The notes beneath the pieces were generated by a model. It did no database searches, was not told the DNA's origin, and worked only from the letters and a program-made list of their open reading frames with translations. Below, piece by piece: positions 11,382 through 45,821 of a stretch of 64,000 nucleotides of DNA. Position numbers and translations under genes: made by a program. Every line of letters begins with the position of its first letter. Position 1 is the first letter of the stretch. This stretch comes from a bacterium. Its GTDB lineage: Bacteria > UBA8248. The stretch is from NCBI GenBank assembly GCA_965213685.1, contig CBDBZY010000051.1, forward strand, positions 288,001 through 352,000, given 5' to 3'.

Positions 11382-14300
11382 ATGCCCGGCGAGGGAGACG
11401 ACGTACGCTCGGGCAGGAGCAATCCTGAATATGTTATGCAGCGCGACCCCGGGGTGCGCAAGTTCACCTGGCAGCAGTTGAGCAAGCTCAACCAGCGACA
11501 CAACGCGCACGTTGCCGTCAGAGGAAAGGTCAGGGACCGAGTTTGCGGTAGGACGGAGAGTATTTGCATGTCTGCTTGTATTTGCTACTAGTGTTGTTTT
11601 AGTATGCTCTAATAACCACGTCCGTGTCAGAAATTGGCGAGTAACTGCCGTTCACACTCTGTTCCTGCAGGTGTACGATGTGAGCGGGTTCATTGCCAAG
11701 CACCCCGGAGGGGCTGACCAGCTGCTGCTGGGAGCAGGCAGAGATGTGACTGCCCTCTTTGAGTCCTACCACAACTTCAACGTCTACAAGTGAGGGAGAG
11801 GAGAGGGAGCTAGAGAGGAGGAGAACAGAGAGGAGTGGTAGAGTTACCTTGTCTCTTAGCTCAGACCAGGTTGCCAATGCAGTCAGTGCTTGTTGCCATG
11901 CACAGTGACACTGATAGGCTTGACTAGGCACATAGGCGTAGGAACCTATGTTTTGCATTCTTCATTATGGTCCCAGCATAGCAGGCCACTCTGTGGTTTG
12001 AGCATAACACATGTTATTGCTTGTACAAAGTTATTATGTAGCGGAGGGCTGCATAGAACGTGACTGAAGCCACCACCTTAATCTATCACTGTCTGGCTTC
12101 AGCCAGTGCTAGTAAGGGGTCCTGAGAATTTTCTATGCAGCTATACAGTAAATCTGGTGCATAGTCTACTGACTTAGAAAATTTCTATGCAGCCTTTTCT
12201 TTCACTTCAGCTACTGAGAGCCTCTACTGTTTGCTGTGTTAAGCTAGATCTCTGGCAGTGTGTTATGTTCATGAGGTCACTAAGTCGCCAGTCAGAGACC
12301 TGTGGGGAGGTCACTAACTGATTGGCAATAGGACTGGAGTCAACCACCAGTCAGTCAACCACCTCACTGTAGTGCCACACATCAACGCTTGAATACCATA
12401 ATACCGTATGGCGCCAAAGTTTCGAGGAGCATAATTTTCGCAGTTTCGCGGATTGGCTTTGAACCATGAAAATTATGCTCAGCGAAATATCGCTCGGTTC
12501 TAGAATGTACGTTGCCGCAACTTCAGCCAGTTGGTGATTGATCAATGGTGCTCTGTCGCTAATTTAAGCGACAATCCGATGACAAGCTGTCCAATCCTCG
12601 AGGCCCCTACCAAAGGACTCGGAAGTACTTCGGCCTCTATCGCGTCAGCCAATGAAAGGACGAGACACGCGATCTGGAAGCCAATGAAAAGGGCTTGTAT
12701 GCTAAGGTCATCCCAGAGCAGAAGGTAAGGTTGCGTAAAGGAAGCCAGCAGTAGAACACAATGTTGCTGCAATCAATCGTCTGTTACTAGGAAAAGCACG
12801 TGCGGCCATCCAGAAGTAGGCGTGGCGAACTTAAATACTTATGATCCACGAAAATTGTTCCCACGAAACTTCAAAAATTGTTATTCCGCGAAAATTGTGC
12901 CCCTCGAAAATTTGGTGCCATACGGTAATTATTTTCTAATTTGAGCAAATACCCCATATTATTGCACAATCAAGTACTGGTCCTCTGGAAACTGTGCTGA
13001 GTTTGCTGCGACTGTTTCACTCTTTAGGGTGCTGGAGAAATACTATGTTGGTGAGCTGGAGAGTAACGAGCTGCCAGTCTTCTCAAAGCAAGAGTAAGTC
13101 AGACTCTCCCCCGCCATCTTCCTGTGGGGGGTTGGCTGTGGAGGAGAACTGGGGATCACATGCTCTGCTGTGGTTGGCACACAGCAGGGAGGACACTAAT
13201 TTACACACGCATGGACGGAGATTTATACTGAGGGCAGTAATGGAGGAAGTAGGTTTTTGTAGGGGTGAGAATGAACCAGCTTTAATCTCCTTCCCTCCTC
13301 CCCCTCCCTCCTCCCCTCCCTCCTCCCCCTCCCTCTTCCCCTCCCTCCCTCCCTCCCTCCCTTCCCTCCTCCATTAGTCTCATGAATCAGACTCTCCAGA
13401 GTCTGACAAGCATGGCATTAGGGCACCCGTGTTACTAAGTCAGGGCTGTAGTGTACTTGTAGTAAATGCACTTTTAGCACTCACAACTGCCAAAGTGTTG
13501 TCGCACTTGTACGCATTCACACAGGCTTATGCTAAACCGCAACCATGCATCTAATTGATTGTCCAAAATTTTCGTGGACAGCCTCACACAACTCAATGTG
13601 CGCATGTTTGCCAGACTCTCTTCCGCAGGTTGAGAGGCGTGGTTTACGAGACTATCCCTCCATCCCTTCCTCTCTTCCTACAGAGCCTTCTACAAGACAC
13701 TGAGGGAGCGAGTGGACAAGTGTTTCAAGGACAATAACATTGTAAGACTCTCGTGTCGTGTCGGCCTCCGCCAGTAGAGTGTGTTGTGATGAGCAGCTGT
13801 CTCCTGTTCTCACTCCCACAGGACCCTAAGATCAGCTACTGGATGTTCCTCCGATACTTTGTGTTTGTTCTCCTCACCCTCCTCTGCTGGTGTGCCATGG
13901 TGGGCATGTGTGTGTGTGTGTGTGTGTGTGTGTGTGTGTGTGTGTGTGTGTGTGTGTGTGTGTGTGTGTGTGTGTGTGTGTGTGTGTGTGTGTGTGTGTG
14001 TGTGTGTGTGTGTGTGTGTGTGTGTGTGTGTGTGTGTGTGTGTGTGTGTGTGTGTGTGTGTGTGTGTGTGTGTGCGTGCGTGCGTGTGTGCGTGTGCATG
14101 TGCGCGTGTGTGTGTGTGTGTGTGTGTGTGGTGTATTACTGCAGACACTCTCACCAGATGCAGCTCCAGGCCAGTCTTATCTTGGCTGTCCCCCTGTCAG
14201 TGGGCTGGGGGTTCTTTGCTGCAATGGTGACTATGACTTGTGGCCACGATGCCAGGTATGTACCTCCACAGCCCCACCTTTCACCCTCACTTGTCTTCTG

Positions 14301-15931
14301 TATGAAAGTACTACACACAGTTTTTGATATGTGGTGGTTGCCATTAGCCTGCCCTGTGTACCCTCCCTCCCTCCCTCCCACACACTCATCACACACACAC
14401 ACACACACACACACACACACACACACACACACACACACACACACAGTCACTTTTGCATCACCCACAAGCCCTGGGTTTGGAAGGCTGTTGGCTTCCTCCA
14501 TGAATTCCTTGTGGGCACCTCATTGTACACATGGACCTATCAGGTGAGCTATTAGCCTGCCCCAGTAGTCCTGTGTGATGGTACCCTCTCCCACAGCACA
14601 CCGTGGGCCATCACGTGTACACCAACATTGAAGGGGTTGATCCGGACATTGTCACTTCTCCTAATGTGAGTGCACCAGTCAAACCAGTAAGGCACGTAAT
14701 ACATTGGGGGGTGACAGGAGAGAGCTGGTTTGGGAGGGGGAACTGTCGATCAGGTGAAGCTGAGTCTCTGCTGGAGAGAGGAGTGGGTGTTTGCAAGAGC
14801 AGTGGTGGTTATGGCGGTGTGCTGTGCTCACTCTCTGCAGGACATTCGGAGGATAAAGTGGGAGCAGAAATGGCTGCCTCGCTATTTCTACCAGCATGTC
14901 TACATGCCCATGCTCTACTGTGTCGTGAGTGTGTAGCAGGAGGTGGTGAGGAACGATGCAGGATCTACCGCATTCTCCCTCTCTCCCTCAGTTGGGTGTG
15001 AAGACCAGGCTCCAAGACTTCCACCTCATCTACAGCCTGAGGAATGGTAGGCAGAACATGTCCCATGCAGCACGGCACAGTTCCTCTCCCCCTCTCCTCC
15101 CTCTCCTGTTGCTATATAGGGGGTATCAGGATGAACAGACCCACCAACTCTCAGCTGCTCGTTCTAGTTGCTGGTAAATTGGGATATGTGATCTTTCGCT
15201 TTGTCATCCCCTGGGTGTTCATGCCATGGCACAGACTGGTAAGAAGATGGGGGTGGGGGGAGAATAACTCTAGGTGTTCCACTCTGCTTCTCTCCCCATT
15301 TTTCCTTCCCCCCTCCCCCCCCCCCCCCCCCCTCCTCTGCCCCCTCCCCCTCTCCTTCCCTCCTACTTTGACCAGCTCCTCTTGAACCTGATTGCGGATG
15401 TCATCACCAGCTACTGGATTGCCTGCCTAGATGAGCTATCCCACGTTGTCAGTGAGGTCAGCAGAGCTAGTCACCCTCCCCCTGATTGAGAGTGCTGGTA
15501 CATATGAGGTGTGTGTCACATGACAACTCTCACTACCTGCTGCAGGTGGAGTGGTTGAGGCCGACAGAGGATAACATTTTCCACAGAGACTGGTTGGTAT
15601 ATAGGAGCCGGTGTCTGTCGGTGTGCATTCTTCCCTCCTTTCTCTTTTTTTTTTTTGCAGGGCAGAGATGCAGGTGACCACAACATTGGACTACGCCACA
15701 GACAGCTGGTTCTGGAGCATCTTCACTGGAGCACTCAACCACCAGACGGCCCACCATCTCTTCCCTGGCGTCATTCAGTCTCACTACCCCCTCATCACGC
15801 CCATTGTCAGGCAGACCTGCGAGGAGTTTGGTATCCAGTACAACTATGTGGACACCACGTGGGAGGCCTTCAACTGCCACGTCAACCACCTGAAGAACCT
15901 TGGGCAGCACAAGGAGCTGAAGACCGAGTGA
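11382..15931 (+). CDS. Front-end (delta5-type) fatty acid desaturase, copy A; cytochrome b5 fusion; 14 exons
   Basis: HPGG heme motif; His boxes [19 protein letters not shown]; all exons join in phase through GT-AG introns. Confidence 0.92.
12404..12925. mobile_element. MITE with about 38-bp TIRs and TA target duplication (Tc1/mariner-pogo type) in desaturase A intron 2
   Basis: TA|CCGTATGGCGCCAAAGTTTCGAGGAGCATAATTTTCGC ... GCGAAAATTGTGCCCCTCGAAAATTTGGTGCCATACGG|TA. Absent from the homologous intron of copies B and C. Confidence 0.85.
13375..13654. mobile_element. Short TAGTCTC...GAGACTA-bounded insertion in desaturase A intron 3
   Basis: Short inverted termini; sequence missing from the homologous B/C intron; no clear TSD. 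Confidence 0.45.
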
Positions 15932-16283
15932 ATGCGTGCTATGAGCACTCACCAGCTGAATAATTACTATCATGTATGTTGTGATGCACAGTATATATGT
16001 CTGCTGTATAGATCCAGGGACGCGCTGATGACATTAGTAGAATCATAGGTAGTATAGACACCTAACTGTGTATAGCATAACTCGGCCTATATATACAAGA
16101 TCTAAGGACAGAATAACAGTCACGTGCAATGACGTCACAACACGTCGTCACGGTATGTCTATTGGATCCATGGATCATGGATGCGCATGCACTGGTGATT
16201 AGCACGCATCAACACTGTGGGCGTGGCTCCGCCGGAGCGCGAAACAGCCCCGCCCTTCTCTGTTTGGATCCGCGACCGAGAAG

Positions 16284-45142: not shown

Positions 45143-45619
45143 CCTGGCGAGATGGCCCCACAATGCTACCTCCTCCGCACGCACGTTCATGCAGGCCGGC
45201 CGGCCGGAAGCACGTAGCCCCACCCATTTTCCGATTCTGGAGCGGAAGGTGGACGCGGCAGTCTCCACCGGTCACCTTAGCCGCTTCGCAATCCCTCATA
45301 TCATTCTAGAGGCAGGAGCTGAAGACAGAGTGAATGTGTTATTTATGAGTGTCCATTTTACTACATAAAAATCTCATAGTGTACAAGACAAACTGTAGCA
45401 TTTCTTACCACACATCACAGGTATGCTTATGAGCGGCGAAGCCGCGAATGGTACTATGGTGTCTTCTACAGATGATAATTATTATGCGGACTATATAGTT
45501 AATGTACTTTGTTTCTGGCTATGTTTCAAGTTCTGCTCAAAAAAGTGTTCTTCATTGTTCACTGAGTGGACACGCACAGCTATGAGCCTCAGTCCACTCT
45601 ATTACATATGCACTGTTTT

Positions 45620-45821
45620 TCAGCCTGCGGTATGCAGAAATGGTCACTCCTCCTCTCCCTCCCTCTGCCCTCGCTGGTGGAGAAACTCAAGGTGCAGCTG
45701 CAATGCCTCTCAGTACTGACATGTTGGAATTTGATTCCAAACTCCTCACAGGTCCGCCTGACAATGGGCGTGATGAGGGGGTAGTGGGACTGAATGACGC
45801 CAGGGAAGAGATGGTGGGCCA
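45620..45821 (-). pseudogene. Desaturase relic F: part of the last exon only, frameshifted
   Basis: [36 protein letters not shown] followed by a small deletion relative to D/E; 3' tail matches D/E; upstream exons missing. Confidence 0.85.

What the first reader, a model, noticed from the sequence alone, without database searches (positions are those of the whole stretch)
11382..45821. Six-copy array of Mortierella/Dictyostelium-type front-end desaturases: candidate animal locus for unusual fatty acid biosynthesis
Seen: five intact 14-exon cytb5-desaturases with shared intron positions plus one relic within 35 kb, in three sequence classes (A; B/C; D/E). Knowledge, from memory: motifs [29 protein letters not shown] and QV.TTQDY resemble the Mortierella alpina and Dictyostelium delta5 desaturases rather than vertebrate FADS1/2, and Dictyostelium delta5 enzymes make delta5,9 dienes. 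Demosponges are known for very-long-chain delta5,9 (demospongic) and acetylenic fatty acids. Inference: this array may be a host-encoded toolkit for such lipids.
Basis: partly seen in the sequence, partly recalled or inferred. Interest (0 to 1): 0.85.

Follow-up and report, generated by a model that had tools for sequence, protein, structure and literature searches.

The report
Sponge array of delta5-type desaturase genes
A demosponge DNA stretch, filed by mistake inside a bacterial genome bin, carries five intact copies and one remnant of a fatty-acid desaturase gene of the fungal/amoebal delta5 type, good but untested candidates for making the unusual fats of sponges.

Summary
Window 11382-45821 carries five complete 14-exon genes for cytochrome-b5-fused front-end desaturases (A+, B+, C-, D-, E-; 458-467 aa). 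All share the same 13 intron positions. A ~210-bp frameshifted 3' remnant lies at 45616-45821. There are three classes: A; B/C (95.5% aa identity); D/E (83%).

The copies are not haplotypes. B and C are inverted, their homology stops at the gene ends, and their DNA depth is not halved. Spliced contigs in one public run show that A and B/C-type copies are transcribed. D and E could not be tested.

In the trees the genes nest inside demosponge sequences, within an opisthokont clade that includes proteins named delta-5 desaturase from Mortierellaceae and Capsaspora, and cnidarian genes. A/B/C and D/E fall in two old demosponge paralog groups.

The family is already annotated in sponges, and its Mortierella affinity is published for cnidarians (PMC6010785). 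This is therefore a new member of a known kind. The link to delta5,9 "demospongic" acids is plausible but untested. I found no paper characterising a sponge front-end desaturase.

The host "genome" G000 is a chimeric bacterial bin in which 4.89 of 7.97 Mb look like sponge DNA.

The parts
11382..15931 (+). Desaturase gene A (group 1, diverged): 14 exons, 462 aa
   Evidence: Exons: 11382-11528, 11671-11789, 13028-13093, 13684-13741, 13822-13899, 14158-14255, 14447-14543, 14597-14665, 14841-14924, 14992-15046, 15120-15238, 15376-15456, 15546-15592, 15661-15931. Spliced contigs of run X8 give joints at introns 7-13. Six match the prediction. Intron 8 moved the donor to 14665/14666. HPGG, HDASH, HTVGHH and QTAHH are present. 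1 of 65 strongly conserved columns is changed.
18672..21452 (+). Desaturase gene B (group 1, conservative): 14 exons, 465 aa
   Evidence: Exons are listed. All introns are GT..AG. 0 of 65 conserved columns are changed. An X8 joint lies at intron 5, and spliced exon 7-8 and 10-11 contigs map across B/C. Pfam FA_desaturase E=2.9e-13 on the last exon.
23301..27856 (-). Desaturase gene C (group 1), inverted duplicate of B: 14 exons, 465 aa, intron 1 of 1,987 bp
   Evidence: C is 95.5% aa and 97.1% CDS identical to B, with dS 0.063. Homology to B runs only from 41 bp before the ATG to 48 bp after the stop. X8 joints lie at introns 4 and 8.
35530..38758 (-). Desaturase gene D (group 2): 14 exons, 458 aa
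   Evidence: The first His box is HDVGH, and HHLLP replaces HHLFP. 4 of 65 conserved columns are changed. Intron 3 has GC at the conserved donor position (AG|GCGAGT). A shifted GT..AG pair also keeps the frame. Expression was not tested.
40893..45190 (-). Desaturase gene E (group 2): 14 exons, 467 aa
   Evidence: The first His box is HDVSH. 0 of 65 conserved columns are changed. E is 83% aa identical to D, with dN/dS 0.60. Introns 12 and 13 hold long (TG)n runs. Expression was not tested.
45616..45821 (-). Relic: 3' part of a last exon plus downstream sequence of a sixth copy
   Evidence: 87-89% nucleotide identity to the ends of D and E. The alignment shows that homology begins inside the third His-box region and that a 4-bp deletion follows the codons for QHVST. 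No upstream exons are present.
21881..22402 (+). DDE_1 (pogo/Tigger-like) transposase fragment in the spacer between the inverted copies B and C
   Evidence: Pfam PF03184 E=3.4e-19. The neighbouring 21444-21875 is a high-copy repeat, with summed contig depth 3555 in X1 against about 8 for single-copy parts.
16203..18367 (+). WD40-repeat gene lying between A and B. It is not part of the family and served as a single-copy, expressed control.
   Evidence: Pfam WD40 E=1.4e-43. A spliced X8 contig of 1,633 nt carries a GT..AG joint at 16908/16980.

Best explanation
This is a real, partly transcribed gene array on a demosponge chromosome fragment. It holds five intact genes and one remnant. The genes encode endoplasmic-reticulum front-end fatty-acid desaturases. 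In these enzymes an N-terminal cytochrome b5 domain (HPGG) passes electrons to a di-iron centre held by three histidine boxes (HDxxH, HxxxHH, QxxHH). The centre removes two hydrogens near the carboxyl end of an acyl chain. The genes belong to the opisthokont delta5-type clade, whose public names include 'acyl-lipid (8-3)-desaturase' and 'delta-5 desaturase'. That clade was inherited vertically from fungi through unicellular holozoans to cnidarians and sponges. The locus joins two old demosponge paralogue groups. Group 1 (B/C, and the diverged A) keeps the ancestral motifs. Group 2 (D/E) is a demosponge-specific, fast-evolving branch that is also tandemly expanded in other sponges. The array grew by local duplication, one inverted and one tandem, and is still being patched by gene conversion. 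Inferred, not shown: B/C keep the ancestral delta5 activity. A and D/E have shifted substrate or chain-length preference. At least one copy supplies the delta5 step in the delta5,9 non-methylene-interrupted very-long-chain acids typical of demosponges.
For: Shown. There are five complete ORFs with identical intron phases. Cyt-b5 and FA_desaturase domains are present. All His boxes and HPGG are intact. Only 0-4 of 65 columns that are at least 95% conserved in 61 relatives are changed per copy. dN/dS is 0.20-0.33 for older pairs. Spliced GT..AG joints at the predicted exon borders occur only in run X8: all 15 listed joints are from X8, with 0 contigs in X1, X5 or X7. They cover A introns 7-13, B intron 5 and C introns 4 and 8. 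In the careful tree of 42 rows the metazoan clade has support 100/99 and demosponges against homoscleromorphs 99/97. Group 1 with A, B and C has 85/88. Group 2 with D and E has 89/89 (the same topology appears in the 66-row quick tree). Motifs: group 1, cnidarians, Capsaspora and fungi share SYWLAL.FQ.SHV and QV.TTQDY. All group 2 rows, and A, differ. Inferred link. Feeding studies, as reviewed in PMC3826146 (passages read), place delta5 and delta9 desaturation of elongated chains in sponges, and no enzyme had been identified. In PMC2992992 (passages read), a table of non-demosponge organisms lists delta5,9 acids in hexacorals and Dictyostelium; together with demosponges these are lineages that carry this clade.
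Against: No activity data exist for any sponge member. Regioselectivity cannot be read from sequence. Delta5,9 acids also occur in molluscs and echinoderms (PMC2992992), so this clade is not required for them; that those animals use FADS-type enzymes instead is my recollection. D/E expression was not tested, because the only read-laying run could not include them. D-E dN/dS is 0.60 and D has 4 changes at conserved columns, which could mean relaxation rather than new function. Support for placing D/E in group 2 is moderate (89/89). Gene conversion between classes (exon 2 is 88-92% identical across groups) may distort the tree. The transcript evidence comes from one run whose kind is not on record.
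Confidence: 0.55

Rival explanations
1. These are ordinary LC-PUFA delta5 desaturases. All copies convert 20:3n-6 and 20:4n-3 to arachidonic and eicosapentaenoic acid, as the Mortierella enzyme does. The array would then reflect dosage or tissue-specific regulation, not new chemistry.
For: B/C keep every family-wide conserved column and the HDASH box of the Mortierella-type enzymes (PMC3423564, passages read). The characterised fungal relative is a 20:3n-6 delta5 desaturase (PMC6010785, passages read). Purifying selection acts on all pairs.
Against: A and the whole of group 2 have replaced the otherwise invariant FQ..H and TTQDY neighbourhoods. The two groups have been kept apart since before the split of the named demosponges in the tree. 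This pattern is more typical of diversification than of dosage.
Confidence: 0.25
2. The diverged copies (A, D, E) have changed regioselectivity or substrate class altogether. They might be delta4, delta6 or delta8 desaturases, sphingolipid long-chain-base desaturases or acetylenases. Their products would then be unrelated to delta5,9 acids.
For: Motifs next to the third His box differ in A and D/E. D/E have HDV(G/S)H instead of HDASH. Some sources name Mortierellaceae orthologues 'sphingolipid delta-4 desaturase', which shows how uncertain such names are. Delta6,11 acids in one sponge hint at other specificities (PMC3826146, passages read).
Against: All five sit inside the delta5-type clade, not in a separate front-end clade. 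No characterised member with those activities was seen in this clade here.
Confidence: 0.15
3. Artefact: the copies are uncollapsed haplotypes, an assembly fold-back, or foreign (non-sponge) DNA in a metagenome bin.
For: The record is a chimeric metagenome bin. B and C differ by only 2.9% in the CDS, which is within the range of sponge heterozygosity (recalled).
Against: All copies lie on one 481,697-bp contig. B/C homology ends 41 bp before the ATG and 48 bp after the stop, and does not continue into the WD40 gene next to B. C has its own 1,987-bp intron 1. In DNA runs of two studies, contigs specific to B (depth 13.3 in X1, 17.2 in X5) and to C (10.1 in X5) are as deep as the single-copy WD40 gene (8.5; 8.1-12.6), not half as deep. 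D and E differ by 9.5% in the CDS, and the aligned parts of their introns are 78% identical. The tree places every copy inside demosponges.
Confidence: 0.03

Closest known systems
Mortierellaceae delta5 desaturase (public names 'delta-5 desaturase', 'acyl-lipid (8-3)-desaturase')
   Same: It has the same architecture (cyt b5 with HPGG, then three His boxes with QxxHH). It shares HDASH with A/B/C and the SYWLAL.FQ..HV and QV.TTQDY motifs with B/C. It lies in the same opisthokont clade in the trees.
   Different: The fungal branch is the outgroup of the holozoan sequences. The only full-length figure here is indirect: P0091 (Gamsiella) is 47% identical to the Halichondria relative P0013. A, D and E have lost the shared motifs. 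The activity of the sponge genes is unknown.
Dictyostelium delta5 desaturases FadA/FadB (recalled: they make delta5,9 and delta5,11 dienes)
   Same: NCBI names one Amphimedon paralogue 'acyl-lipid (8-3)-desaturase B-like'. As I recall, that name derives from the Dictyostelium entries. Delta5,9-17:2 is listed for Dictyostelium in PMC2992992 (table passage read).
   Different: The resemblance is a lead, not a test.
Cnidarian Fad 'clade C' of Surm et al. 2018 (PMC6010785)
   Same: These are non-bilaterian animal front-end desaturases that cluster with the M. alpina delta5 enzyme. Hexacoral and sea-anemone proteins named 'acyl-lipid (8-3)-desaturase-like' form the sister group of the sponge clade.
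   Different: That paper reports zero to three Fad genes in cnidarians with sequenced genomes (passage read). Here five intact genes sit in 34 kb and split into two sponge-specific groups. I could not see the paper's supplements, which may list sponge sequences.
Annotated demosponge paralogues (five Amphimedon queenslandica proteins, three Halichondria panicea, Ephydatia muelleri models)
   Same: They belong to the same two paralogue groups. Amphimedon_1, Halichondria_1 and Ephydatia fall with A/B/C. Amphimedon_2-5 and Halichondria_2/3 fall with D/E. Group 2 copies share contigs in those genomes.
   Different: Here members of both groups are neighbours in one array, and they exchange sequence by gene conversion. 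No copy is closer than about 83% identity to any database protein, measured on the last exon.
Vertebrate and bilaterian FADS1/FADS2
   Same: The general front-end desaturase architecture is the same (recalled).
   Different: None of the 120 listed best hits of 607 carries a bilaterian name. PMC6010785 places all bilaterian Fads in another clade (passage read). They were not compared directly here.

Membership tests
Front-end (cytochrome b5-fused) fatty-acid desaturases | N-terminal cytochrome b5 domain with the HPGG haem-binding motif | tested here: met
   Pfam Cyt-b5 E=4.7e-13 to 8.7e-15 on exon 2 of A and D. HPGG is present in all five copies.
Front-end (cytochrome b5-fused) fatty-acid desaturases | FA_desaturase domain with three His boxes, the third starting with Q (QxxHH) | tested here: met
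   Pfam PF00487 scores above its cut-off on the last exons of A, B, C and D. HD(A/V)(S/G)H, H(T/V)(L/V/I)GHH and Q(T/M/I)AHH are present in all five. The definition of the boxes is taken from PMC3423564 (passage read).
Front-end (cytochrome b5-fused) fatty-acid desaturases | Inserts a double bond between an existing bond (or the carboxyl end) and the carboxyl group | not testable with these tools
   This needs heterologous expression and GC-MS.
Delta5-type clade (Mortierella-type, 'acyl-lipid (8-3)-desaturase') | Phylogenetic placement with members named or characterised as delta5 desaturases | tested here: met
   All five lie in a clade with fungal, Capsaspora and Sphaeroforma proteins named delta-5 desaturase and with the cnidarian clade. 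The names come from the sources.
Delta5-type clade (Mortierella-type, 'acyl-lipid (8-3)-desaturase') | First His box reads HDASH (once proposed as a delta5 hallmark) | tested here: inconclusive
   A, B and C read HDASH. D reads HDVGH and E reads HDVSH. PMC3423564 (passages read) shows that the motif is not invariant among delta5 desaturases, so the failure of D/E does not exclude them.
Delta5-type clade (Mortierella-type, 'acyl-lipid (8-3)-desaturase') | Delta5 desaturation of 20:3n-6 / 20:4n-3 on acyl-lipid substrates | not testable with these tools
Dictyostelium FadA/FadB-like delta5 desaturases acting on saturated or monoenoic chains | Closer to the Dictyostelium enzymes than to other delta5 desaturases | not tested
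Vertebrate-type FADS1/FADS2 | Orthology with bilaterian FADS | not tested
   The evidence is indirect only. No bilaterian name appears among the 120 listed of 607 hits. A published tree puts bilaterian Fads in another clade (PMC6010785).
Expressed, functional gene (as against pseudogene) | Intact ORF, canonical splice sites and spliced transcripts | tested here: met
   Met for A and B/C-type copies. For D and E only the ORF and splice sites are met, and transcripts were not tested. The relic fails.

The most novel reading that the evidence does not exclude
The demosponge-specific group 2 genes (D/E and their tandemly expanded relatives in other sponges), perhaps with the diverged copy A, are the long-sought host enzymes that put the delta5 double bond into C24-C30 chains. 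They would then make the delta5,9 'demospongic' acids. The array, which mixes conservative and diverged copies and shuffles exons by gene conversion, would be a host-encoded engine for lipid diversification.
Probability: 0.3. Interest if true: 0.75.

Novelty: new member of a known kind. Interest (0 to 1): 0.5.

Why it matters
Tracer feeding, as reviewed in the papers I read, showed that demosponges elongate fatty acids to C26-C30 and then desaturate them at delta5 and delta9. A 2013 review stated that no enzyme had been identified (PMC3826146). This locus gives five full coding sequences, with exon maps, that can be cloned directly. The analysis also separates a conservative group from a sponge-specific diverged group, which tells an experimenter which copies to test first. 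It is a caution for databases as well. The locus sits in a record held as a prokaryotic genome, so its genes could be misread as bacterial or as horizontal transfers.

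Tried and rejected
1. RNA runs. The look-up of sequencing runs listed no holder on record as RNA. I report this only as 'no RNA holder listed'.

2. Read laying. I then laid 14100-27040, as the tool advised.

3. Depths were not used to rank expression. The tool warns against that.

4. The X8 joints 14924->20488, 19975->24708 and 20542->24107 join exons of different copies. I read them as ambiguous mapping of B/C-type or A-type spliced contigs onto near-identical exons, not as trans-splicing. 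The joint 25307->25603 skips exon 3 with 'between: not known' and was not interpreted.

5. My aligner allowed only GT donors. It therefore shifted D's exon 3/4 border by 4 nt. Inspection showed a GC donor at the conserved site. Both models keep the frame, and RNA would decide between them.

6. The aligner added 12 nt to A's exon 8. The RNA joint corrected this.

7. The search of earlier findings returned nothing.

8. The search of solved structures matched only the cytochrome b5 part (query residues about 20-114). No solved desaturase-domain relative was found by sequence.

9. The 1009-aa ORF at 29972-32998 has no Pfam family. It resembles only unnamed eukaryotic clusters and was not pursued.

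11. The third homology search, the representative search, the structure prediction and the complex prediction were not used. Spliced proteins cannot be handed to those tools.

Full report
WHAT IS THERE

A tblastn of the window with a sponge homologue, followed by a spliced protein-to-genome alignment that I wrote, recovers five complete genes. Each has 14 exons.
- A: + strand, 11382-15931.
- B: + strand, 18672-21452.
- C: - strand, 27856-23301.
- D: - strand, 38758-35530.
- E: - strand, 45190-40893.

The genes encode 458-467 residues with no internal stop. The 13 intron phases are the same in every copy. Introns are GT..AG, with one exception: D intron 3 has GC at the conserved donor position.

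The exon at 27710-27856 is exon 1 of C, separated from exon 2 by a 1,987-bp intron. It is not a relic. The sixth element is 45616-45821 (- strand). It holds the last two-thirds of a final exon plus downstream sequence, is 87-89% identical to D/E, carries a 4-bp deletion and has no upstream exons.

Pfam finds Cyt-b5 and FA_desaturase in the exons tested. HPGG and the three histidine boxes are intact in all five copies. Amino-acid identity is 74% for A-B, 95.5% for B-C, 83% for D-E, and 56-59% between A/B/C and D/E.

ARE THE COPIES REAL AND ALIVE?

All copies lie on one contig. B and C are tail-to-tail inverted. Their homology runs only from 41 bp before the ATG to 48 bp after the stop, and does not continue into the WD40 gene that flanks B. 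A DDE_1 transposase fragment and a high-copy repeat lie between them.

In DNA runs from two studies, contigs specific to B or C are as deep as the single-copy WD40 gene, not half as deep. D and E differ by 9.5% in the coding sequence, and the aligned parts of their introns are only 78% identical. The haplotype and fold-back explanation is therefore rejected.

dN/dS is 0.20-0.33 for the older pairs, 0.32 for B-C and 0.60 for D-E. Of 65 alignment columns that are at least 95% conserved in 61 relatives, A changes 1, B 0, C 0, D 4 and E 0. The relatives themselves change 0-7, with a median of 1.

One public run (X8, kind not on record) holds spliced contigs. All 15 listed joints come from X8 alone. 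None comes from the three other runs laid.
- Seven joints fall on A introns 7-13. Six are exactly as predicted. The seventh moved the donor of intron 8 by 12 nt, which makes A 462 aa.
- One joint falls on B intron 5.
- Two joints fall on C introns 4 and 8. A third C-region joint (25307->25603) skips exon 3 and was not interpreted.
- Three joints link neighbouring exons across near-identical copies.
- One joint lies in the WD40 gene.

A and B/C-type copies are therefore transcribed in at least one sample. D and E were outside the stretch that could be laid. Their expression is open.

WHOSE GENES ARE THEY?

The window is G000:C51:288001-352000. G000 is held as a prokaryotic genome of 7.97 Mb in 71 contigs, but it is a mixture.
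- 49 contigs (3.07 Mb) have at least 60% G+C and are almost wholly covered by long ORFs.
- 21 contigs (4.89 Mb, including C51 at 481,697 bp) have 42-54% G+C and long-ORF cover of 0.10-0.64. All but one carry (CA)n runs.

The window's genes have short spliceosomal introns. The best named relatives of the desaturase are from Amphimedon, Halichondria and Ephydatia, followed by corals. All 41 desaturase matches in G000 lie in this one locus.

PHYLOGENY

A profile search returned 607 relatives at E<=1e-20, of which the best 120 were listed. The named ones are sponges, cnidarians, Capsaspora, ichthyosporeans, Nuclearia and many fungi, among them Mortierellaceae proteins named delta-5 desaturase. None carries a bilaterian name.

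A quick 66-row tree and a careful 42-row tree agree with each other and follow the species tree. The order is fungi, unicellular holozoans, then cnidarians plus sponges (metazoan clade 100/99), then homoscleromorphs, then demosponges (99/97).

Within demosponges:
- A/B/C group with Amphimedon_1, Halichondria_1 and Ephydatia (group 1, support 85/88).
- D/E group with Halichondria_2/3, Amphimedon_2-5 and many unnamed proteins (group 2, support 89/89).
- A third unnamed group branches below both.

Group 1, except A, keeps the motifs shared with fungi and cnidarians (SYWLAL.FQ.SHV, QV.TTQDY, HDASH). Group 2 and A have replaced them. Group 2 copies share contigs in other sponges, so tandem expansion of that group is common.

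CONCERTED EVOLUTION

Nucleotide identity varies sharply from exon to exon.
- Between A and B, exons 2, 4, 9 and 14 are 93-100% identical. The other ten exons are 67-79% identical.
- Between group 1 and group 2, exon 2 (the haem-binding exon) is 88-92% identical. The other exons are 47-80% identical.
- A's intron 4 is 96% identical to B's.

This is the signature of gene conversion between array members. It may blur the tree.

MECHANISM AND FUNCTION

Shown: the architecture and catalytic residues of a front-end desaturase, clade membership, purifying selection, and transcription of some copies.

Inferred from the family (PMC3423564, PMC6010785, passages read): electrons pass from the fused cytochrome b5 to a di-iron centre, which desaturates near the carboxyl end, most likely at delta5.

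Reviews state that sponges elongate 16:0 to 26:0 and then insert delta5 and delta9 bonds in either order, and that no enzyme had been identified (PMC3826146, passages read). In PMC2992992 (passages read), a table of non-demosponge organisms lists delta5,9 acids in hexacorals and Dictyostelium. Together with demosponges, these are lineages that carry this clade. The same paper also lists them in molluscs and echinoderms, so the correlation is loose.

I rate at 0.55 the reading that the copies have divided substrates and that at least one makes the delta5 bond of delta5,9 acids. The rivals are plain redundancy for arachidonate and EPA synthesis (0.25), other regioselectivity (0.15) and artefact (0.03).

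NOVELTY

A cnidarian Fad clade that clusters with the Mortierella delta5 enzyme is published (PMC6010785). A Fad-like gene in Amphimedon was noted in 2013 (PMC3826146). NCBI already names several sponge paralogues. Supplements were closed and may hold sponge sequences.

The locus is a new member of a known kind. Its main value is as a set of ready candidates for an old biochemical question.

Noticed in passing
G000, all contigs (window = C51:288001-352000): The assembly held as one prokaryotic genome (7.97 Mb; 94% complete and 3.7% contaminated by its own figures) is a chimeric bin. 49 contigs (3.07 Mb) have at least 60% G+C and are gene-dense. 21 contigs (4.89 Mb) have 42-54% G+C and low long-ORF cover, and all but one carry (CA)n runs; these look like sponge host DNA. 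One 2.5-kb contig has 33% G+C.
   Followed up: partly
G000:C64:474680-489902 (loci L013-L015): Three full-length ELO-family (fatty-acid elongase) reading frames, uninterrupted over the whole Pfam domain, lie within 15 kb on another host-like contig (E=2.6e-65, 2.6e-63 and 1.2e-45). This is a second lipid-gene cluster in the same host DNA. It is not linked to the desaturase array in the data held.
   Followed up: partly
window exons 2, 4, 9, 14 of A/B/C and exon 2 of D/E (e.g. 11671-11789, 19025-19143, 38445-38563, 44846-44964): Identity is a mosaic that points to gene conversion. Exon 2 is 88-92% identical between the two old paralogue groups, while the other exons are 47-80% identical. A against B is 93-100% identical in exons 2, 4, 9 and 14 but 67-79% in the other ten exons. 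A's intron 4 is 96% identical to B's.
   Followed up: partly
window 38311-38315 (- strand), donor of D intron 3: The conserved donor position reads GC (AG|GCGAGT), where E has GT. This is a probable GC-AG intron. A GT..AG pair 4 nt downstream also keeps the frame.
   Followed up: partly
window 25723-27709 (intron 1 of C): The intron is swollen to 1,987 bp, against 206 bp in B. It holds two palindromic repeats (26066-26433, 26814-27010), an (AC)85 run (27043-27212) and a high-copy repeat at 25764-26195, where summed contig depth is about 2,400-2,500 in two DNA runs.
   Followed up: no
window 21444-22402: A very high-copy repeat (21444-21875, depth 3,555-4,752 in two DNA runs) lies next to a DDE_1 pogo/Tigger-like transposase fragment (21881-22402). 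Both sit exactly in the spacer between the inverted copies B and C.
   Followed up: partly
window 29972-32998 (+): An uninterrupted 1009-aa reading frame has no Pfam family. The protein atlas gives a 0.99 feature match to an unnamed eukaryotic cluster (commonest phylum Mollusca) and 0.94 to one commonest in Mucoromycota. It may be a mobile-element protein.
   Followed up: partly
window 33447-35038 and 39537-40097: Two blocks of tandem repeats lie between the genes. The first has two halves in inverted orientation. They translate into long repetitive open frames that are probably not genes.
   Followed up: no
window 16203-18367 (+): A WD40-repeat gene lies between A and B. It appears as a spliced 1,633-nt contig in run X8, with one GT..AG intron at about 16909-16979.
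   Followed up: no
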